Source: a phage
Direction: 5' to 3' (one strand)
Sequence record: PX418922.1
Length of the DNA stretch: 64,000 nt
Shown here one piece after another: positions 2,038 through 18,090 of this stretch (positions are counted from its first letter, which is position 1; each line of letters opens with the position of its first letter). The translations under genes were made by a program, and so were the position numbers. The notes under the pieces were generated by a model. It was not told where the DNA came from, ran no database searches, and saw only the letters and a list, made by a program, of their open reading frames with translations.

Positions 2038-2394
2038 ATGAAAAAATTAATCTTAGCCACATTGCTGGCTACCGTAAGCTTCACCACTTACGCTCAAAAA
2101 TTTGTAGCAGTTAAAACAGATATTGGTAAAGATGTTGTGATCACAGGCAACAAGTTTTACTATACACCTGGAAATGGTGTTCTAGAAGAGTGTAAAGATG
2201 TTGAGGCATATACAGGAAAAGAAGATAACACGGAACGTCCTTTTTATTCGATTATAGCCACTTGCAAAAATGAAATAGTAGCTATTAAACAATATAAAGA
2301 TGCCCCTGGAGGAGAATACTTATTAGTCAAGAATATTAAGAGTGAAAAAACTGCAAAGTTTACAGTAATTATTTTAAAAGGAGAAACGTTCTAA
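2038..2394 (+). CDS. secreted or lipoprotein-like protein (118 aa)
   Basis: RBS GGAGGG; N-terminal signal peptide MKKLILATLLATVSFTTYA. Confidence 0.55.
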   Translation: MKKLILATLLATVSFTTYAQKFVAVKTDIGKDVVITGNKFYYTPGNGVLEECKDVEAYTGKEDNTERPFYSIIATCKNEIVAIKQYKDAPGGEYLLVKNIKSEKTAKFTVIILKGETF

Positions 2395-3533
2395 TGAAAT
2401 ACACTATTTTTGGAGATGTGGCTGTTGTAAATAAGGAATATGGTGTTGAAGCTAATAAACTTCCTGCTGGAGTTTGGGTTGTCAACTGCGATCCGCACGG
2501 TAACTACTCTTTAGTGCGTGGCGAAAGTTTCTCTCTTCCGAACACTCTTTATGGGGAAACTAAAGACCGCGCCGCACATGTTATTAAAACATTTGCTCGT
2601 CGTAGTAAAGAAGGTAAAAATACTGGGGTGTTACTGACAGGCACAAAAGGCAGTGGTAAGACGATGTTAGCTAAACTAATTAGCATGTCCCTAATGTCCA
2701 CAGAAGGTTTAGGTATTCCAACCATTTTGGTTACACAGCCTTACACAGATGCTGGCTTCTTAGAATTTATGAGTAAAATTACAGATCGTGCTGTTGTTTT
2801 ATTTGACGAATTTGATAAAGTGTACGCTAAGAAAGAAGATCAGGAAGCACTGTTGACCTTGTTGGATGGAACAGGAAGTGGGAATAAACTTTACATCCTA
2901 ACTAAAAATAGTGGTTATATCTCGGAATATTTTGTAAACCGTCCTAGTCGTATCTATTACAGTTTCAATTACGATAAACTGTCTAGTGAAACTATGTTAG
3001 ATTACTTGGATAAGAACTTGGTAAATAAAAAACACGTAGATAACTTCCAACGTTTATGGGATGTTAGCACAGAGTTGTCTTTCGATGTTATTCAAGGTAT
3101 TGTAGAAGAATTGAATTTCTATCCAAAAATGACTTTTAAAGAATGTCTTGAAATGATGGGTATTTCTTTAGGCAACGATGCTAAATGGAATGTGGCTTCT
3201 ATCGTAGCTAATGGCAAAACTCTGAAGGTGAATTGGATCAATAACTGGCACGACTTCACCCCTACTAAGTTTTTGTCGGGTGCTTGTTCCCTGAACATCT
3301 ATCTGCAAAGCTTGAAAGATGATGAAGTGGAAGCAATGGAAACCAACAGTTATGTTATCCTGGATGAAGATGGTGATCCACATATTGATCTATGTGCAAC
3401 TGCTGATGGTCTAACTTGTGATCTGATTGAAGGTGGTAAGATCCTGGTGATGAGCACTACACCAGGAAACACTCTGCGAGTGGTGCTGGAGCCTGTAACA
3501 CAACGTTCCACCACATTAGGTAGCGTGTTCTAA
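2394..3533 (+). CDS. P-loop NTPase (AAA-like ATPase)
   Basis: Walker A GTKGSGKT and Walker B VVLFDEFD motifs; RBS AAGGAG; 379 aa. Confidence 0.6.
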   Translation: MKYTIFGDVAVVNKEYGVEANKLPAGVWVVNCDPHGNYSLVRGESFSLPNTLYGETKDRAAHVIKTFARRSKEGKNTGVLLTGTKGSGKTMLAKLISMSLMSTEGLGIPTILVTQPYTDAGFLEFMSKITDRAVVLFDEFDKVYAKKEDQEALLTLLDGTGSGNKLYILTKNSGYISEYFVNRPSRIYYSFNYDKLSSETMLDYLDKNLVNKKHVDNFQRLWDVSTELSFDVIQGIVEELNFYPKMTFKECLEMMGISLGNDAKWNVASIVANGKTLKVNWINNWHDFTPTKFLSGACSLNIYLQSLKDDEVEAMETNSYVILDEDGDPHIDLCATADGLTCDLIEGGKILVMSTTPGNTLRVVLEPVTQRSTTLGSVF

Positions 3534-3608: not shown

Positions 3609-4595
3609 ATGGCAGCACCAAAATCATGGGAACAATATAAAGAAGAGTGTCAACCAATAGCAGAGAGTAAGCAAATCCAAATCTTAGGATGGACGGGAGA
3701 ATGGAAAGGGGTTAATACAAAACTTGATTTGTTGTGTCATTGTGGTTATAAATGGGATACTACAAGTATTAACAATTTTAAACGTGGTAGTGGTTGTCCT
3801 TTATGTGGATATGAGAATACAAGGAAGGCACAAACAATATCCGACGATCAACATATTGCAGATTTCTTTTCTACAGGGAAGTTTAAGGAAGGCACTATTT
3901 TCACCAATACGGGGGAACGTAAAGGGTGTGATCCAGTATGGATGATTCAGTGTCCTGTTTGTTCTCATGATGAATATGTTAAAGCTGGACTATGTGATGG
4001 TAAGTTTTATATGACGCGTGGCAATCTTAAATATGGATACTTACCCTGCCGTTGCTCTGCATCTTATAGGTATACAGCGGAACAGATTACGTATAAAGTA
4101 AGAAAGAAAATAGAAAAGAAAGGGTATGTTTGGATAGGATGGATTACCAAACCATCTTCTATAGGTAAGTTTAAATATATATGTAAGAGTCATGGGGAAC
4201 AAAAAGGAACTGCAAACAACCTTTTAAACATAGGACAAGGTTGTCCGCAGTGTGCTAACAAAAATCAACAACAAGCCTACATTAATTATATTTACGATGA
4301 GCAAGATATTATCTGTGCACTGAAGTTTGGTATTGCTAATAATAGTAATCGCCGTATGAAAGAACAAAATAGTCATAATGTGTTCACTATGAAACAACAC
4401 CAAGTGTGGCACTTCCCTACTGTTAAGCAATGCCAAAACGCAGAGAAATATTGCAAGAAGGTGTTAAACACGGAAGCAGTGAGCAAATATTCTATGCAAG
4501 ATGGCTACACAGAAACAGTGGAGCTATCTTGCATGGCATCCGTACAGAATATTTATAAACTTTATGGTGGAACATTACAGGAGGAAACATGTTAG
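3609..4595 (+). CDS. Cys-rich protein, paralogue of 20297-21277
   Basis: RBS GAGGAG; shares ILGWTGEWKG, QQAYIN..ALKFGIA and DGYTET blocks with 20297-21277; several CxxC pairs. Confidence 0.55.
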   Translation: MAAPKSWEQYKEECQPIAESKQIQILGWTGEWKGVNTKLDLLCHCGYKWDTTSINNFKRGSGCPLCGYENTRKAQTISDDQHIADFFSTGKFKEGTIFTNTGERKGCDPVWMIQCPVCSHDEYVKAGLCDGKFYMTRGNLKYGYLPCRCSASYRYTAEQITYKVRKKIEKKGYVWIGWITKPSSIGKFKYICKSHGEQKGTANNLLNIGQGCPQCANKNQQQAYINYIYDEQDIICALKFGIANNSNRRMKEQNSHNVFTMKQHQVWHFPTVKQCQNAEKYCKKVLNTEAVSKYSMQDGYTETVELSCMASVQNIYKLYGGTLQEETC

Positions 4596-4967: not shown

Positions 4968-5156
4968 ATGGCACGTTTAGCAGATAACCCTGTATTCTAC
5001 CCCGTTCTTGATCTTTATGATGAATTGACATATGTTGTGGAGCGGTATAATTACAATGAAGACCTCTTGGAGACAAACCTTAAAGTAGTTCTGATGAAAG
5101 CCTATCAGCAAGGGCAACGTGAAATTTTGGAGAGTATGAAAAATGCGAATAACTGA
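4968..5156 (+). CDS. hypothetical protein (62 aa)
   Basis: RBS AAGGAG before ATG 4968. Confidence 0.45.
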   Translation: MARLADNPVFYPVLDLYDELTYVVERYNYNEDLLETNLKVVLMKAYQQGQREILESMKNANN

Positions 5157-5685
5157 TGATTATGTATTCTTCTTTTCACATAAAGATGTTTTTAGTAATT
5201 GGTATATTGCACCCTTTACAGAAACCGAACCAGGTTACAATCAGACATTTAATTGTGTCGAACAATACATGATGTGGCGTAAAGCTTTGCTTTTTAATGA
5301 CCACAACACTGCACAGGCTATTCTGACTCATAGTTTGATACGGAAAGATGAGAAGATCCAAGCTTATTACAAACGTATGGGTAAGGCAGTGTCGGATTTT
5401 GATAACAACGTATGGGAAGAGAACCGTGAGCGTATTGTTATGCGAGGTTTATGCTTGAAATATGTACAGAATCCAGATTTGTATGCAGACTTACACCTTT
5501 ACCAATACAAAACGTTTGTTGAAGCAAGCCCCTACGATAAGGTTTACGGAATTGGAATGGGGATGTATGAACCAGGGGTGCTAAACCCTGCCACCTGGAA
5601 AGGGCAGAATCTTTTAGGTAAATATCATAATAAACTGATCGAAATACTTTTCCCAGACAAAATACCGCAAAGACGATATTTGTGA
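5143..5685 (+). CDS. NADAR (YbiA-like) domain protein
   Basis: Motifs FFFS..FSNW, E.YMMWRKALLF, EASPYDKVYGIGMG..GQNLLGK resemble the YbiA/DUF1768 N-glycosidase family. Confidence 0.5.
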   Translation: MRITDDYVFFFSHKDVFSNWYIAPFTETEPGYNQTFNCVEQYMMWRKALLFNDHNTAQAILTHSLIRKDEKIQAYYKRMGKAVSDFDNNVWEENRERIVMRGLCLKYVQNPDLYADLHLYQYKTFVEASPYDKVYGIGMGMYEPGVLNPATWKGQNLLGKYHNKLIEILFPDKIPQRRYL

Positions 5686-5911
5686 TATTTTAACTTTTTT
5701 CATTTTTAGAACAAAGGTGTCACTTTGTAGCACAGAAATAAGGCTCCTACAGCACCGTAGAGAGCCTGTTATTTTGTCCTATACAAACCCTTGTCTTTTT
5801 CAGTTTGCATCACTAGGATTCGATCTAAGTAGGTTCCTGAAGGTCTACCAATAAGATTAAAGGTTATCTCAAATTACCACTACCTGTTATCTCAAAAATT
5901 CCTCAAATTAT

Positions 5912-6112
5912 TTAAACTTTTTAAGAATTTACAAAAGTGAAAGTTGAAAACCAAAATTTAAAGTTTAGGAAAATTATCTTAAAATGTCAGATACAAAACA
6001 AAACTCAAAAGTCAAGGAAAATTTTAAAAATTTTGCGCGCCCACAGTATTTAAAGTTTTTTTGCTTTTACAAAAATGAAAGTACAAAAGCAAAATTTAAA
6101 GTTTACAAAAAT
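5912..6112. repeat. tandem imperfect direct repeats (~46-bp core, ~136-bp period) in AT-rich non-coding tract
   Basis: TACAAAAGTGAAAGTTGAAAACCAAAATTTAAAGTTTAGGAAAATT (5930-5975) vs TACAAAAATGAAAGTACAAAAGCAAAATTTAAAGTTTACAAAAATT (6066-6111); TTTAAAGTTT recurs. Confidence 0.6.
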
Positions 6113-6119
6113 TTATGCA

Positions 6120-6240
6120 GATGGGAATGAGAAGAGTTCTCATGTGGAAATGCAAATGATAATGATTCGCATTTAGGTTTATAAATGAGATTGATTCTTA
6201 TTTAATAAAGTAAATGATAATCATTCTCATTTAGAGAATG
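6120..6240. promoter_or_regulatory. cluster of palindromic operator-like sites (half-site TTCTCAT/ATGAGAA), Fur-box-like
   Basis: ATGAGAAGAGTTCTCAT (6127-6143); AATGATAATGATTCGCAT (6155-6172); TAAATGATAATCATTCTCAT (6211-6230) followed by GAGAATG. Confidence 0.45.
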
Positions 6241-6459
6241 ACGCGCAGGGGCGGTGTTTGTCTCGCGCTCCCGTGTCCCCTCGCCATGTACTAAGAATAA
6301 CAGATCCAGCCAGGAAAGCAAGCGATTATTTTATCTTTACATTTCTTTACAAATATATAGCGCCCAGCCTACCGGCGATCAACCTTCCAACCAGTGCCCC
6401 TGGTATGTTAGCCCCGCCTTTACGCCGTGGGGTGGCGCTTCCTCTTCTGTATGTAAAAC

Positions 6460-6488
6460 AGTATAAGCCCTATCCCTGGGCTTGTCAA
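6460..6488 (-). promoter_or_regulatory. sigma70-like promoter on minus strand (TTGACA-N17-TATACT)
   Basis: On minus strand TTGACA (plus 6483-6488), 17-nt spacer, TATACT (plus 6460-6465); drives GC-rich transcript toward ~6250. Confidence 0.35.
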
Positions 6489-6490
6489 GA

Positions 6491-6757
6491 TTATTTTTTG
6501 TTTTCTTGCCAGGTCAGGACACCTAGCCAAAAATGAATATCACCTTTTCCCCAATGTGGTATATTGCTTTCTTTCCCACCTTCACGCGCCCAGGTAAAAC
6601 CGCCCGTGTAACTTTGTAATTGATAACTATCCTCGACCTTATAATCTGATAGGTTGAGAACGGTTTCAACCTTTAAGCCCGTTGCGCTTGCTACCTGGTG
6701 CACCGTGCCGCCTTGCCAGCCCAATGAGTGCATAAGATGTAATGTAGTATTTGTCAT
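6491..6757 (-). CDS. hypothetical protein (88 aa)
   Basis: Minus-strand ORF in the GC-rich block; RBS AAGGG and GC hairpin upstream; divergent from the plus-strand array. Confidence 0.4.
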   Translation of the reverse strand: MTNTTLHLMHSLGWQGGTVHQVASATGLKVETVLNLSDYKVEDSYQLQSYTGGFTWAREGGKESNIPHWGKGDIHFWLGVLTWQENKK

Positions 6758-6866
6758 GGTGTCGCCCTTTCTTTGTTGTGCGCCCTGGTTGGCGCGGTAG
6801 AAAGATGATAGCCCTTTCCTTTATATATAGCAAGCAAAAAGAAAATAAAAAAGATTGAAAAAGTGG

Positions 6867-9113: not shown

Positions 9114-9479
9114 ATGGCTATTAATATTAATGTTTCCGCTTATGCTACCCTGGCTAACACGGCTAAAATTGAATTATCCAGCATTGAGGCGGTGCATATT
9201 AGCGCCCGTCGCTGGTTTCAACGGTCCTACGGTAACACATATTTTTCTTTAATGGTTGACGTTGAGATCGGCGGTAAACTGATCGAGGTGGTTAACGTTC
9301 CGTTTCAATATGGCTATGGTGATCATTTTGATACCGTCGCCCTAGAAGAGTTTAGCAAGGTTATCAACCTGGAAGGTAAAGAGTTTTCAAATTATGCCTA
9401 CCTTTCCCGTTTTTGCCGTGACAATGGGATCACTGTATACAGTCATGCGAGCGATGTAAAACGTAAAAAAGATTTATAA
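9114..9479 (+). CDS. hypothetical early protein (121 aa)
   Basis: ATG 9114 preceded by conserved AAAAAGGT..ATC context; alternative in-frame ATG at 9096. Confidence 0.5.
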   Translation: MAININVSAYATLANTAKIELSSIEAVHISARRWFQRSYGNTYFSLMVDVEIGGKLIEVVNVPFQYGYGDHFDTVALEEFSKVINLEGKEFSNYAYLSRFCRDNGITVYSHASDVKRKKDL

Positions 9480-9485
9480 AAAGCA

Positions 9486-9545
9486 TTGACAGCACGAATA
9501 AAAAGAGTAAACTGTATTACATAGAGAGCGGGAACACTTCCCGCC
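9486..9545 (+). promoter_or_regulatory. early promoter unit 7 with 5' hairpin
   Basis: TTGACA-N16-TAAACT; GTATTACATAGAG; hairpin GCGGGAA-CAC-TTCCCGC 9528-9544. Confidence 0.6.
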
Positions 9546-9568
9546 TCACTGAAAAAGAGAGAAAAATC

Positions 9569-9808
9569 ATGGCTAAATCTAAAATGTACAACGGTCACAA
9601 AAACAAAACTCATTGGAATGTAAGCCTTTGGATTAATAACGATGAATCGTTATACCGGTTGGCCCAAGATTTTATTAACGCTAATGCTAATCGTAATGAT
9701 GCGGCGCGGGATATGATGCTTTTTCTGGAACAAACTGGACAAGATAAAACGCCAGACGGTTTCAAATATAGCACTACTGCGATCCGTGCCGCGATGGTTG
9801 GAATGTAA
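9569..9808 (+). CDS. hypothetical early protein (79 aa)
   Basis: RBS AAGAGAGAAAAATC-ATG. Confidence 0.55.
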   Translation: MAKSKMYNGHKNKTHWNVSLWINNDESLYRLAQDFINANANRNDAARDMMLFLEQTGQDKTPDGFKYSTTAIRAAMVGM

Positions 9809-16110: not shown

Positions 16111-16136
16111 GGGCGCACAAAGCGCCCTTTCTTTTT
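16111..16136 (+). terminator. rho-independent terminator
   Basis: GGGCGCACAAAGCGCCC hairpin followed by TTTCTTTTT. Confidence 0.7.
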
Positions 16137-16139
16137 GCC

Positions 16140-17150
16140 CGAACAATGTTGATAGATTCCGCCTATGGAAAACCGACACAGAACAAAACTGAATAAATAG
16201 CGGTATCAAGCTAATCAACCATTAAATGAATAACCATACCTCCCAGGGTAACAGGCTGTTAGAGAGCCATTTAAAGCGGTTAAAATCGATCAACAACCAA
16301 CAACAAACCATCAAAAACACCCTTTTACCTCCTTTCTAGTGCAATGATAACCATTATCATCTATCCATGTTTATCTATACAATATAAGTGCATAATTATA
16401 ATGTTGATAATAGTTCGCAACAACTAACCAACAAACAACATAAAACAATAAGCAAACTAATCATAATCAAAGGAATAATAGCAAGATGATTGATAACAAC
16501 AAACAATCAAACCATGATGAATACTAAGCAAGATAACGATAACACGACAAAACAACCAACTAACGAACAATAACAAACGAAACCATTAAAATAATAACTA
16601 TTGCCATAATAGTGACTAAATGAAATCATTACAAAACGAATCATTCACAGAGTCATCATTAGCACGCTATGCCGGACACATAGCGAGCTAATAATAAGCC
16701 AACTACACCCCAACAATCATAACCATCGGTGATGGTTATTTCTTGTTACTGCGTAGCTTGCAATAATTGCAAGCGTAATGACGCTTACACTTATTGCGCT
16801 GGCTTATTATTAGCATTATATGTAATTACCAAGATCATAACATTAGCGCAATAACAATAATCATTGTGGTAATTACGTAAGGAAACAATTAGCATGGCAA
16901 TAATTATGGGGCAATGGGAGGATGATTATCATCATTCCGATACATTGCACACTATGCACATAATAGAATAAAAAGCAATAATTTTGGGGGCGAAATGTTA
17001 CCGCCACAGGCGGGAATGTTGAGCACTAAGAAAAGAGATAAACCTTAATCATGGGGGCGTAAATATCCGCAGGATTGCCAACGGCGATCCGGTAGGATGT
17101 TGAGCATCTTCTCTTAAACGTAAATAAAATCAGAAAATTCTTGATTTATT
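16140..17150. other. A+C-rich, G-poor non-coding tract with palindromes (candidate origin, regulatory region or ncRNA)
   Basis: About 1 kb without credible ORF; runs of CAACAA/AACAAA; palindromes CTTGCAATAATTGCAAG (~16757), GATGATTATCATC (~16920), AGCGT-AATG-ACGCT (~16774). Confidence 0.45.
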
Positions 17151-17174
17151 TTAGTTTTTATGTTAATAAACGTT

Positions 17175-17379
17175 TAAATAATAATCATTCTCATATAAAT
17201 AATAGTCTGCTTGTCATGAGCGGGATTAGTTGACAATGTTCCGTCATATGATGAAGTTGCCAACCTATTGATAAATAAGTGTTTGTGTGATTTATAATCA
17301 AGTGGCCCACCTTGTCGCTACGTTGGCATAAGCCTTGCATAAGTCATTGAATACGAATGATAATTATTCTCATTCGCAT
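17175..17379. promoter_or_regulatory. second cluster of Fur-box-like / TTCTCAT palindromic sites
   Basis: TAAATAATAATCATTCTCAT (17175-17194) is 19/20 identical to 6211-6230; AATGATAATTATTCTCATTCGCAT (17356-17379) matches 6155-6172. Confidence 0.45.
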
Positions 17380-17493
17380 GATATTTGGGAATTGTCGCTG
17401 CGTGGACCTGACGGCCCGAAAATTCGCGTTAAGCACTTCTTACGTATGCGCCATGATTTTTGCCATATGATATTGATTCTATTAGATATTCTT

Positions 17494-17678
17494 GCCATGA
17501 TTGCCATGAAACAGGGTGTCCCGAAATAATCTTTCCCCGTAGATATTTTGGGTTACTTTTTATACAAGAGTGGGGTGTCAAAAATAATCGGTATATATGG
17601 GATAATTGATAGGAATCCCCTATGATAATTCGATTGTAATTCCCTGAGATTGATCGTATGATGTTGGTGATTGATGAT
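17494..17678. repeat. direct repeats ATGATTGCCATGAAA (two copies ~170 bp apart) and GGTGTC..AAATAATC
   Basis: Copies at ~17494-17508 and ~17664-17678; GGTGTCCCGAAATAATC (~17515) vs GGTGTCAAAAATAATC (~17573). Confidence 0.35.
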
Positions 17679-17715
17679 TGCCATGAAAGATGGCTAACGA
17701 TGAGAGGAGATTATC

Positions 17716-18090
17716 ATGCAAGAGAGTAAAAATATTCCGTTGAGCAGTGCAGCATTGCTTCGCTTCTATAAAGCATGGATTGCCAACTATCCTGCAATGA
17801 ATCGCACAACGAGTGGCTTATGTGGTTGTCTGGTGGATTATGTAGATGATTTTGTTGGTGAGACAACTAGAGAAGAAGATAGAAGATGGCGGGATAGTTT
17901 GTTGGACCGTTTGAAATATGAAATGAGGAGACAATTTACATGTGCAGGGCTGGACTATAATCTTCCGTTCAATGCAGATTGCATGGATTACCTTTCAGAG
18001 TGTATAAACTTGGCGTGTCATACCAACACGTTACGTCTTCAGTGGGTGAAAGACAGAATTGAAGATGCAAATAATGTTTGCATTGAATAA
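17716..18090 (+). CDS. GLCxCL-family small protein (124 aa), paralogue set member 1
   Basis: RBS GAGGAG; motifs FYKAW..YP, GLCGCL, C-terminal LRLQWVKDR shared with 22323, 28117, 29422 ORFs. Confidence 0.6.
   Translation: MQESKNIPLSSAALLRFYKAWIANYPAMNRTTSGLCGCLVDYVDDFVGETTREEDRRWRDSLLDRLKYEMRRQFTCAGLDYNLPFNADCMDYLSECINLACHTNTLRLQWVKDRIEDANNVCIE

What the first reader, a model, noticed from the sequence alone, without database searches (positions are those of the whole stretch)
5912..6112. Tandem ~46-bp direct repeats in an AT-rich non-coding tract (iteron-like)
Two near-identical ~46-bp units (5930-5975 and 6066-6111, about 38/46 identical) are each preceded by a TTTAAA(G/C)TTTTT motif, giving a ~136-bp periodicity in a 550-bp gene-free region just upstream of the palindromic cluster. 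The architecture fits an origin of replication, a packaging site or a multimeric protein-binding array.
Basis: seen in the sequence. Interest (0 to 1): 0.5.

Follow-up and report, generated by a model that had tools for sequence, protein, structure and literature searches.

The report
Conserved three-unit repeat array, phage non-coding module
The two AT-rich repeats are real and are the outer units of an ancient three-unit DNA array inside a single-copy, motif-packed non-coding region shared by more than 200 phAPEC8-, phi92- and rV5-like phages; it most likely acts as a protein-binding control site, perhaps the still-unmapped replication origin, but no function has been shown.

Summary
The window is a Phapecoctavirus (phAPEC8-like) genome. 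The repeat is real: 72 nt at 5904-5975 and 6042-6113, 59/72 identical, against 37.4 +/- 1.8 in shuffles. The register is 138 bp, not 136. The 66 nt between the copies are a decayed middle unit. phi92-like phages, Citrobacter phage Tr1 and rV5-, CR8-, KpS8- and PVP-SE1-like phages all carry exactly three units at the same place, with unit 1 to unit 3 always 138-143 bp apart. The unit sequence differs completely between the two subfamilies.

The array lies in an 805-bp gene-free module. In order this holds GATATTT repeats, a terminator, TTATCTCAAA boxes, the array, four Fur-box-like palindromes 29 bp apart, a very conserved GC-rich element, and a conserved leftward sigma-70-type promoter.

The array is not coding, not structured RNA and not a general promoter motif. 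It is not the genome end either: the 329-bp terminal repeat maps 11 kb away.

Best reading: a cis-acting protein-binding and easily melted array, most likely part of a replication origin (about 0.35). Rivals are a regulatory or insulator nucleoprotein site, a T5-type injection-stop region (only the palindromes are shared), and a centromere-like site. Function is inferred throughout. Interest is moderate.

The parts
5675..5690 (.). Two GATATTT direct repeats (5675-5681, 5684-5690) overlapping the stop codon of the NADAR-domain gene. They mark the left edge of the module. rV5-, CR8-, KpS8- and PVP-SE1-like phages have 3-5 copies at the same place.
   Evidence: Read from the sequence. Same motif in L013, L014, L015, L017, L018, L021 and L023-L025.
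5741..5776 (+). Intrinsic-terminator hairpin (AGGCTCCTAC...GTAGAGAGCCT) followed by a T-run. It ends the rightward gene cluster. The complementary strand is also followed by T-rich sequence.
   Evidence: Sequence. Annotated as a terminator in phAPEC8 and ASO2A at the homologous position.
5864..5896 (+). Two TTATCTCAAA boxes (5864-5873, 5887-5896). A third, degenerate copy, TTATCTTAAA, lies at 5974-5983 in place of the middle box A. The motif recurs in the same position in both subfamilies.
5904..5975 (+). Array unit 1. It holds box A (TTATTTAAACTTTTT, 5908-5922) and box B (AAAACCAAAATTTAAAGTTT).
   Evidence: the repeat finder D3. Shuffle test. Orthologous unit in relatives. Identity to phi92 is 0.71, against 0.55 for the neighbouring spacer.
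5976..6041 (+). Array unit 2. It is degenerate in Phapecoctavirus: box A is replaced by ATTATCTTAAAAT and box B is weak (AAAACAAAACTCAAAAGTCAAGG, 79% to box B1). It ends in the conserved AAAATTTTAAAAATTTT + GC-rich tail.
   Evidence: the repeat finder D4. Alignment with the three-unit genomes phi92, KKE7M and Tr1.
6042..6125 (+). Array unit 3. It holds box A (GTATTTAAAGTTTTT, 6046-6060), the invariant TTTTTTTGCyTTT and box B (AAAAGCAAAATTTAAAGTTT).
6126..6231 (.). Four palindromes of the type AATGAGAATnATTCTCATT, starting at 6126, 6155, 6184 and 6213 (exact 29-bp period). They resemble the Fur 7-1-7 box and are the same motif as T5 direct repeat C / palindromes E, G and I.
   Evidence: T5 annotation and sequence.
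6236..6455 (.). Very conserved GC-rich non-coding element. It includes TCTTTACATTTCTTTACA, CTACCGGCGATCAACCTTCC, a hairpin ACCAG...CTGGT and GTTAGCCCCGCCTTTACGCCGTGGGGTGGCG. It is single copy in 232 phage records.
   Evidence: No Rfam match. No excess folding energy. No convincing covariation.
6460..6488 (-). Sigma-70-type promoter TTGACA-17-TATACT reading leftward toward the GC element, the palindromes and the array. Its spacer holds the hairpin 6465-6483, which also looks like the terminator of the 88-aa ORF.
   Evidence: 11/12 match. The equivalent hexamers are conserved in CR8, KpS8 and SalP219, read.
6491..6757 (-). 88-aa ORF of unknown function (phrog_19316) bordering the module. It is deleted, together with the promoter and the right part of the GC element, in phage ETEC-TG.

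Best explanation
The two repeats are units 1 and 3 of a three-unit array of 68-76-bp units. The array is a cis-acting, double-stranded-DNA protein-binding element. It sits in a single-copy, transcriptionally insulated non-coding module that phAPEC8-, phi92- and rV5-like phages have kept since before the two subfamilies split.

Proposed mechanism (inferred, not shown). Each unit offers two short recognition boxes, A and B, held at fixed distances, so that several copies of a DNA-binding protein assemble over about 210 bp. Box A is invariant within Stephanstirmvirinae. Box B tends to be alike within a genome and different between genomes. The very low duplex stability of the array lets the complex open the helix. 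I therefore read the module as the phage's replication origin region, or one of its origins. On this reading the array is the initiator-binding and unwinding part. The adjacent Fur-box-like palindromes, the GC-rich element and its leftward promoter would be accessory parts (host-factor binding, transcriptional activation).

Shown: the repeats, their conservation, their geometry, and the absence of coding, RNA-structure, promoter-motif and terminus properties. Inferred: protein binding, unwinding and replication initiation.
For: - The repeat is real and non-random.
- Exactly three units occur at the homologous place in phi92, Tr1, KpS8, CR8 and Av-05. Unit 1 to unit 3 is 138-143 bp apart everywhere, although the unit sequence differs completely between subfamilies.
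- The span from box A1 to the palindromes is 217-224 bp in five lineages.
- Conservation is concentrated in short boxes with variable spacers.
- Units 1 and 3 are at least as conserved as the flanking NADAR gene and more than the adjacent spacer.
- Box B is more alike within a genome (0.82) than between genomes (0.72), as iterons are. The effect is modest and n is small.
- Box A with at most 1 mismatch occurs nowhere else in the 64 kb. The array has no other copy in the window.
- The array lies in the lowest-GC, second least stable 300 bp of the window.
- The module is packed with at least five different repeated motifs between a terminator and a conserved promoter that points at the array.
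- The module is single copy per genome.
- The origin of rV5-like phages is unmapped. The rV5 paper shows an ORF-free 'non-coding' box and reports that skew analysis failed (PMC3606486).
Against: - No DnaA box occurs anywhere in the module.
- No recognisable initiator, helicase-loader or Rep gene is adjacent. The neighbours are a NADAR protein, an unknown 88-aa ORF, an endonuclease, and an AAA ATPase with only weak DnaC/clamp-loader similarity.
- Units of about 70 bp are much longer than classical 17-22-bp iterons.
- Cumulative GC skew has no extremum at 6 kb. The only switch, at about 34 kb, follows gene orientation.
- The region is not uniquely unstable: other stretches of the window are as easily melted.
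- Phage ETEC-TG lacks the promoter and the right part of the GC element (window 6405-6779) and was still isolated as a phage. A transcription-primed mechanism from that promoter therefore cannot be essential.
- No experimental data on replication, transcription or protein binding for this region were found.
Confidence: 0.35

Rival explanations
1. Regulatory or insulator nucleoprotein site at the boundary between the rightward gene cluster and the early region. Host nucleoid or regulatory proteins (Fur on the palindromes; H-NS, Fis or IHF-type proteins on the AT-rich array) would assemble there. They would block read-through from both sides, or tie early transcription to host physiology such as iron status, with no role in replication.
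For: - The array lies between a terminator (5741-5776) and a leftward promoter, that is, between convergent transcription units.
- Two of the four neighbouring palindromes match the Fur 7-1-7 consensus (from my own knowledge of Fur-box work) with 1 or 2 mismatches. The window holds 7 such sites against 0.79 expected, 5 of them in two non-coding regions.
- The array is extremely AT-rich.
- Box A is invariant across the genera compared, which fits a conserved, possibly host, factor.
Against: - A simple insulator does not need three units held at a fixed 138-143 bp over such evolutionary distance, nor a complete change of unit sequence with retained geometry.
- No conserved promoter hexamers occur within the units in relatives.
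- No Fur, IHF or H-NS binding has been shown.
Confidence: 0.25
2. A counterpart of the T5 injection-stop region: a site where entering DNA pauses or is anchored, so that a terminal segment of about 11 kb is handled separately from the rest.
For: - The palindromes next to the array are the same motif as T5 direct repeat C and palindromes E, G and I. These lie in T5 Repeat Region 3, the candidate iss, just left of the 7.9% nick (Davison, bioRxiv 10.1101/866236).
- The module lies 11.2-11.4 kb from the inferred right genome end. That is roughly 7.5% if the genome is about 150 kb, as its close relatives are.
- Both regions are repeat- and palindrome-dense non-coding tracts that follow a terminator.
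Against: - Only the palindromes are shared. T5 has no equivalent of the AT-rich units; its repeat units each contain a palindrome.
- The T5 hallmark DnaA-box pairs are absent.
- The module is not inside a long terminal repeat; the terminal repeat here is 329 bp.
- The genes between the module and the right end read outward, the opposite of T5, where the genes before the iss read inward from the entering end.
- Two further palindromes lie inside the short terminal repeat, so the motif is not specific to this site.
- Two-step injection has never been reported for these phages, and the T5 iss itself is not mapped to a motif.
Confidence: 0.08
3. A centromere-like or segregation site that supports persistence of the phage genome in dividing cells (carrier state). 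It would be analogous to plasmid centromeres made of tandem repeats, such as F sopC.
For: - The array consists of tandem units tens of bp long, in single copy.
- Vequintavirinae are the commonest 'persistent virulent phages' found in E. coli isolate assemblies (bioRxiv 10.1101/2024.12.31.630880).
- A 137.5-kb E. coli 'plasmid' record carries part of the module.
Against: - No ParA/ParB-type genes lie next to the module.
- The cited study found no complete partition systems in such phages.
- Only three units are present.
Confidence: 0.07
4. An array of promoters or small-RNA genes, one per unit.
For: The consensus scan finds TTTACA-18-CAAAAT in units 1 and 3, and TTGTAA-16-AATAAT on the other strand at 5934-5907.
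Against: - All are weak 9/12 matches in 23% GC DNA.
- The -35-like hexamers are not conserved in Tr1 or phi92.
- Box A is not used anywhere else in the 64 kb.
- Either strand folds worse than its shuffles (z +0.98 and +1.15).
- There is no Rfam match.
Confidence: 0.07
5. A packaging (pac) or terminus-related site.
For: Repeat arrays near genome ends are common in phages with terminal repeats. The palindrome motif also occurs within the terminal repeat.
Against: - The terminal repeat of the close relative Schickermooser maps to window 17103-17431, 11 kb away.
- The one record that starts inside the array (ETEC-TG) is a circularised assembly with about 110 nt duplicated across the junction, not a terminus.
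Confidence: 0.03

Closest known systems
Iteron-type replication origins (lambda ori, P1 oriR, pSC101/R6K-type oriV)
   Same: Several direct repeats carry short conserved recognition boxes in a non-coding, AT-rich, easily melted tract. The locus is single copy. Box B tends to be alike within a genome and different between genomes. Other protein-binding motifs lie close by.
   Different: Units are 68-76 bp rather than 17-22 bp, and there are only three. There are no DnaA boxes and no initiator gene containing or flanking the repeats. No replication data exist.
Transcription-activated phage and plasmid origins (T4 oriF/oriG, T7 primary origin, ColE1), from my own knowledge
   Same: A strong host-type promoter points into a G-rich-transcript region that is followed by an AT-rich, low-stability tract.
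   Different: The AT-rich tract starts about 330 nt downstream of the promoter. The promoter and half of the transcribed element are deleted in a phage that was still isolated (ETEC-TG). No R-loop or primer evidence exists.
Phage T5 Repeat Region 3 (candidate injection stop signal)
   Same: It is a dense mix of direct repeats and palindromes in a non-coding tract after a terminator. The palindrome motif AATGAGAATnATTCTCATT is shared. The position is roughly 7.5-8% from one genome end.
   Different: The AT-rich three-unit array has no T5 counterpart. There are no DnaA-box inverted repeats, no DRD repeats and no long terminal repeat. The orientation of the neighbouring genes is opposite.
Plasmid centromeres built of tandem repeats (F sopC, 43-bp units)
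   Same: Tandem units of tens of bp form a cis-acting protein-binding array.
   Different: There are three units rather than about twelve, no internal inverted repeat within the units, and no adjacent partition genes.

Membership tests
Iteron-type replication origin | Three or more direct repeats that serve as initiator-binding sites | tested here: inconclusive
   Three units with conserved boxes A and B are present. The units are 68-76 bp and no binding has been shown.
Iteron-type replication origin | Adjacent AT-rich DNA-unwinding region | tested here: met
   5907-6206 is 24% GC and is the second least stable 300-bp stretch of the 64 kb. It is not uniquely unstable.
Iteron-type replication origin | Initiator (Rep/O-type) gene containing or next to the repeats | tested here: not met
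   The neighbours are a NADAR protein, an unknown 88-aa ORF, a CapR/T5orf172 endonuclease, and an AAA ATPase with only weak DnaC/clamp-loader hits.
Iteron-type replication origin | Host DnaA boxes (common, not universal) | tested here: not met
   TTWTNCACA has no match between 15 and 20775 on either strand.
Iteron-type replication origin | Replication initiates here | not testable with these tools
   This needs marker-frequency sequencing, 2D gels or an ori-plasmid amplification assay. GC skew is uninformative because it follows gene orientation (PMC3606486).
T5 injection-stop-signal region (Repeat Region 3) | DRC-type palindromes AATGAGAATnATTCTCATT | tested here: met
   There are four copies at 6126-6231 and four in T5 9473-9630, against 0.17 and 0.01 expected. 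They lie next to the finding, not inside it.
T5 injection-stop-signal region (Repeat Region 3) | Paired DnaA boxes within inverted repeats IRD'/IRC' | tested here: not met
   No DnaA box occurs in the module.
T5 injection-stop-signal region (Repeat Region 3) | Location at the inner edge of a long (~10 kb) terminal repeat | tested here: not met
   The terminal repeat is 329 bp and lies 11 kb away.
T5 injection-stop-signal region (Repeat Region 3) | Two-step DNA transfer that stops at this site | not testable with these tools
   No injection data were found for these phages.
Packaging site / genome terminus | Virion DNA ends or the terminal repeat map to the site | tested here: not met
   The ends of the Schickermooser record map to window 17103-17431.
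Promoter or small-RNA gene array | Conserved -35/-10 hexamers or a conserved, stable RNA fold | tested here: not met
   Only 9/12 consensus matches, which are not conserved in Tr1 or phi92. Folding z-scores are +0.98 and +1.15. No Rfam hit.
Protein-coding sequence (48-aa ORF 5984-6130) | Open frame kept in relatives | tested here: not met
   In ECO340P2 the frame stops after 14 codons (read). The region has indels that are not multiples of three.
Fur-regulated operator (adjacent palindromes) | Match to the Fur 7-1-7 box TGATAATnATTATCA | tested here: met
   6215-6229 has 1 mismatch and 6157-6171 has 2 mismatches. The window has 7 sites against 0.79 expected. The consensus comes from my own knowledge; Fur binding has not been tested.

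The most novel reading that the evidence does not exclude
The array and the neighbouring palindromes together form a control module for phage DNA replication or DNA entry that depends on a host factor, possibly Fur and hence iron status. Its palindrome component is shared by three otherwise unrelated groups of virulent enterobacterial phages: T5-like, rV5-like and phi92/phAPEC8-like. In T5 that component lies exactly in the long-sought injection-stop region. If so, the same host protein would act on the T5 iss and on this module. The three-unit array would then be the lineage-specific part that recruits a phage protein.
Probability: 0.12. Interest if true: 0.8.

Novelty: new variant of a known kind. 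Interest (0 to 1): 0.45.

Why it matters
phAPEC8-, phi92- and rV5-like phages are among the most frequently isolated therapeutic and biocontrol coliphages. Their replication origin and their early control regions are unmapped; the rV5 genome paper tried and failed to find the origin by skew. This work defines a single-copy, about 800-bp non-coding module with a fixed three-unit geometry, conserved in more than 200 genomes. That gives a concrete target for origin mapping, for engineering (safe insertion sites, replication-defective mutants) and for protein-DNA studies. The shared palindrome links this module to the T5 injection-stop region and offers a testable candidate protein, Fur, for a 40-year-old open question in T5 biology. 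The repeats themselves may still turn out to be an ordinary origin or regulatory array.

Tried and rejected
**Readings of the array that were tested and rejected**
- Coding: the 48-aa ORF 5984-6130 is broken in ECO340P2.
- Known RNA family: Rfam, at E-values up to 10, gave only noise.
- Structured RNA or single-stranded DNA: both strands of the array fold worse than shuffles.
- General promoter motif: box A occurs only here. The weak sigma-70-like matches are not conserved.
- Genome terminus or pac site: the ends map 11 kb away. The ETEC-TG record that starts in unit 1 is a circularisation artefact with about 110 nt duplicated across the junction.
- DnaA-dependent origin: no DnaA boxes.
- GC skew as an origin indicator: uninformative.

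**Checks on neighbouring or related elements**
- GC-rich element as a structured RNA: RNAalifold energies are similar on both strands, there is no clear covariation, and the single-sequence z-score is 0.26. This is unresolved rather than rejected.
- Homology of the array to the T5 repeats: T5 units are different.
- Module in plasmids or E. coli chromosomes: the only hit is one 137.5-kb 'plasmid', which matches just 90 nt of the GC-rich element and may be an rV5-like phage (not checked). There were no chromosomal hits.
- Wider search for paired box A in IMG/VR: it returned phi92-like contigs plus one unrelated AT-rich coding repeat.

**Literature**
- Searches for a described origin, a transcriptome or Fur boxes in these phages found nothing relevant.
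- One search failed on a term shorter than three characters.

Full report
**Identity of the window.** Region 5600-6500 is 98-99% identical to many Phapecoctavirus (phAPEC8-like, Stephanstirmvirinae) genomes of about 148-152 kb. The finding lies in an 805-bp gap without credible genes (5686-6490). On the left is a rightward NADAR-domain gene (5143-5685). On the right is a leftward 88-aa ORF of unknown function (6491-6757). Beyond that begins a run of small rightward ORFs; in the relatives phAPEC8 and ASO2A many of them carry their own annotated promoter or terminator.

**The observation.** The repeat finder reports 72-nt copies at 5904-5975 and 6042-6113, 82% identical and 138 bp apart.
The second unit is therefore 6068-6113, not 6066-6111.
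- TTTAAA(C/G)TTT precedes each core (5911, 6049) and recurs inside each (5957, 6095).
- In 1000 dinucleotide-preserving shuffles of the AT-rich core alone, the best 72-nt direct repeat has 37.4 +/- 1.8 matches (maximum 44), against 59 observed.

The repeat is real. It is not strictly tandem, because 66 nt separate the copies.

**What the 66 nt are.** The homologous gap was read in several relatives: ECO340P2 and phiWec181 (divergent Phapecoctavirus), Citrobacter phage Tr1, and phi92, alia and KKE7M (Justusliebigvirus).
- phi92-like phages and Tr1 have three intact units, each starting (A/T)TTATTTAAAGTTTTT, with start-to-start spacings of 67 and 75-76 bp.
- In the Phapecoctavirus genomes read here (the window, ECO340P2, phiWec181) the middle box A has decayed to ATTATCTTAAAAT or TATCTCAAA. 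The tail of the unit (AAAATTTT...GC-rich) is kept.
- The span from box A1 to the first palindrome is 217-224 bp in all five lineages.

The array is therefore an old three-unit structure, not a recent duplication. Orthologous units keep unit-specific features, for example TTTTTTTGCyTTT in unit 3.

**The same architecture with a different sequence.** The GC-rich element to the right of the array is single copy in 232 phage records, including Vequintavirinae (rV5-like Av-05, CR8, KpS8, Mydo, PVP-SE1). A pattern scan of IMG/VR added 15 more loci. In all of the complete, distinct Vequintavirinae loci read, the same position holds exactly three direct repeats. Their sequence is different (GGTTCTCGATCG ... 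ATCGTATT ... AAAAAATTTTT). Spacings measured in three of them are 74-78 and 63-67 bp. Unit 1 to unit 3 is 138-143 bp in every lineage measured. Geometry retained while sequence is replaced argues for a structural, protein-binding role on duplex DNA.

**Anatomy of the module (window coordinates).**
- GATATTT x2 at the stop codon of the NADAR gene (5675-5690; 3-5 copies in Vequintavirinae).
- A terminator hairpin at 5741-5776.
- TTATCTCAAA boxes at 5864 and 5887, with a degenerate third copy at 5974.
- The three-unit array, 5904-6125.
- Four palindromes of the type AATGAGAATnATTCTCATT, exactly 29 bp apart (6126-6231).
- A 220-bp GC-rich element (6236-6455).
- A leftward TTGACA-17-TATACT promoter (6488-6460), whose hexamers are also present in CR8, KpS8 and SalP219.

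**Degree of conservation.** Against phi92, per-segment identity is 0.71, 0.51 and 0.64 for units 1, 2 and 3. It is 0.55 for the spacer, 0.61 for the NADAR gene and 0.88 for the GC element. Within the array, conservation is concentrated in box A, which is invariant across the genera compared, and in box B. Box B is more alike within a genome (0.82) than between genomes (0.72). This is a modest, small-sample hint of concerted evolution or co-evolution with a binding protein.

**What the array is not.**
- Not coding: the 48-aa ORF 5984-6130 stops after 14 codons in ECO340P2, and the indels are not in threes.
- Not a known or stable RNA: Rfam gives only noise, and both strands fold worse than shuffles (z +0.98 and +1.15).
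- Not a general promoter motif: box A with at most 1 mismatch occurs only at 5908 and 6046 in the 64 kb. The 9/12 sigma-70-like matches are not conserved in Tr1 or phi92.
- Not repeated elsewhere in the window.
- Not the genome end. Korf et al. report a 328-bp terminal repeat for the close relative Schickermooser (PMC6563267). Its record has 329 identical nt at both ends, and these map to window 17103-17431, 11.2-11.4 kb to the right.
- The ETEC-TG record that starts inside unit 1 is a circularised assembly with about 110 nt duplicated across the junction.

**Link to T5.** The palindromes, but not the array, match T5-like phages near 9.5-10 kb, that is, at the inner edge of the left terminal repeat.
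- In T5 they are annotated as direct repeat C and palindromes E, G and I (9468-9637). They lie just left of the 7.9% nick, inside Repeat Region 3, which Davison proposes as the injection stop signal.
- The motif is close to the Fur 7-1-7 box TGATAATnATTATCA (consensus from my own knowledge). The window holds 7 sites with at most 2 mismatches, against 0.79 expected. Two lie in the module and three in the terminal non-coding region.
- I found no paper that notes this.
- T5's own repeat units each contain a palindrome and do not resemble the AT-rich units. T5's DnaA-box pairs are absent here. The terminal repeat here is short, and the neighbouring genes have the opposite orientation.

The T5 analogy is therefore limited to the palindromes.

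**Mechanism.** The best-supported general statement is that the array is a cis-acting protein-binding element on duplex DNA, under selection for box sequence and spacing. I hold this with about 0.8 confidence.

For a specific role I favour a replication origin, or one of several origins, at about 0.35.
- For: the module is single copy, insulated between a terminator and a promoter, and crowded with five kinds of repeated motif. It contains the lowest-GC 300 bp listed in the window. It also has an iteron-like array, in phages whose origin is unknown (PMC3606486).
- Against: there are no DnaA boxes, no neighbouring initiator gene, unusually long units, and no GC-skew signal.
- Against a mechanism primed from the leftward promoter: phage ETEC-TG has a natural 375-bp deletion (window 6405-6779, between 10-bp microhomologies). 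It removes that promoter, the right part of the GC element and the 88-aa ORF, and keeps the array and the palindromes. Transcription from that promoter therefore cannot be essential.

The rivals, with my estimates, are:
- a regulatory or insulator nucleoprotein site, 0.25;
- a T5-iss-like entry site, 0.08;
- a centromere-like site for carrier-state persistence, 0.07 (Vequintavirinae are the commonest 'persistent virulent phages');
- a promoter or small-RNA array, 0.07;
- a packaging site, 0.03.

**The GC-rich element.** It is more conserved than any neighbouring gene (0.88-0.97 within Stephanstirmvirinae apart from Tr1, where it is 0.63; about 75% to Vequintavirinae).
- RNAalifold gives similar energies on both strands and no convincing compensatory changes. 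The single-sequence fold is no better than shuffles. One hairpin (ACCAG...CTGGT) is kept with variable loop and stem sequence.
- In one IMG/VR genome (L028) a leftward ORF that looks like a homing endonuclease (judged by eye from its translation; no family search was run) sits inside the element, next to a divergent duplicate of its right half with its own promoter.

Whether the element acts as DNA or as RNA is open.

**Novelty and verdict.**
- The array and its module are not described in the papers I could search. The only traces are automated 'repeat_region' features in a few records and a 'non-coding' box in the rV5 map.
- I rate it a new variant of a known kind (a repeat-built cis-acting control or origin region), of moderate interest.
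- The more surprising lead is the Fur-box-like palindrome shared with the T5 injection-stop region. It lies next to the finding, not within it.

Noticed in passing
window 6126-6231; also 17177-17195, 17356-17374 and 16345-16359: The palindromes AATGAGAATnATTCTCATT sit exactly 29 bp apart. They resemble the Fur 7-1-7 box and are the same motif as T5 direct repeat C / palindromes E, G and I in the candidate injection-stop region. They also occur in rV5-, CR8-, KpS8- and PVP-SE1-like phages. In this window they occur only in the module and in the terminal non-coding region. No paper noting a Fur-box likeness was found.
   Followed up: partly
window 6236-6455: This GC-rich non-coding element is more conserved than the neighbouring genes (88-97% within Stephanstirmvirinae apart from Tr1, about 75% to Vequintavirinae). 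It is single copy in 232 phage records and has no Rfam match, no excess folding energy and no clear covariation. It contains TCTTTACA twice, 10 bp apart, and a hairpin with a variable loop. Whether it acts as DNA or RNA is unresolved.
   Followed up: partly
L032/L033 (Escherichia phage ETEC-TG, OR786310.1), equivalent to window 6405-6779: A natural 375-bp deletion between 10-bp microhomologies (GCGCCCTGGT) removes the right part of the GC element, the leftward promoter and the whole 88-aa ORF. The array and the palindromes remain. These deleted parts are therefore dispensable for isolating the phage, provided the assembly is correct.
   Followed up: partly
L028 6280-7100 (IMGVR_UViG_2974574029_000001): A leftward ORF of about 200 aa sits inside the GC-rich element. 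From its translation it looks like a homing endonuclease, but no family search was run. Next to it is a divergent duplicate of the element's right half with its own promoter. The arrangement looks like a homing event with co-conversion from a Tr1-like donor.
   Followed up: partly
window 16111-17748: A gene-poor tract of about 1.6 kb holds the inferred 329-bp direct terminal repeat (17103-17431, by homology to the Schickermooser record ends). It also holds the least stable 100 bp of the window (17106-17205, 17% GC), three Fur-box-like sites, and a duplicated GTTGAGCA motif just left of the repeat.
   Followed up: partly
window 6855 to about 16100: This is a run of small rightward ORFs. In the relatives phAPEC8 and ASO2A many of them have their own annotated sigma-70-type promoter or terminator. 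The run is an early-gene region that ends at the right genome terminus. Its GC skew (0.03-0.09) is lower than that of the flanking regions (0.19-0.25).
   Followed up: no
window about 34000: The sign of the GC skew switches from positive to negative, giving the only cumulative-skew extremum in the window. It probably marks a change in gene orientation.
   Followed up: no
CP057073.1 (PLSDB 'plasmid', 137,565 bp, E. coli from cattle faeces), 17365-17455: This record, filed as a non-mobilisable plasmid, matches 90 nt of the GC-rich element. Its size is that of an rV5-like phage genome. It may be a persistent virulent phage assembled as a plasmid.
   Followed up: no
window 5675-5690 and the left edge of the module in L013-L025: GATATTT(G/T) short direct repeats occur 2-5 times, spaced 9-21 bp apart, at the left boundary of the module in both subfamilies. 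They overlap the end of the upstream gene. They are another candidate protein-binding array.
   Followed up: partly
window 3609-4595: This ORF combines CapR and T5orf172 domains (PHROG 'endonuclease') and its length varies among relatives. It lies two genes upstream of the NADAR gene and next to an AAA ATPase (2394-3533) that has weak DnaC/clamp-loader similarity.
   Followed up: no
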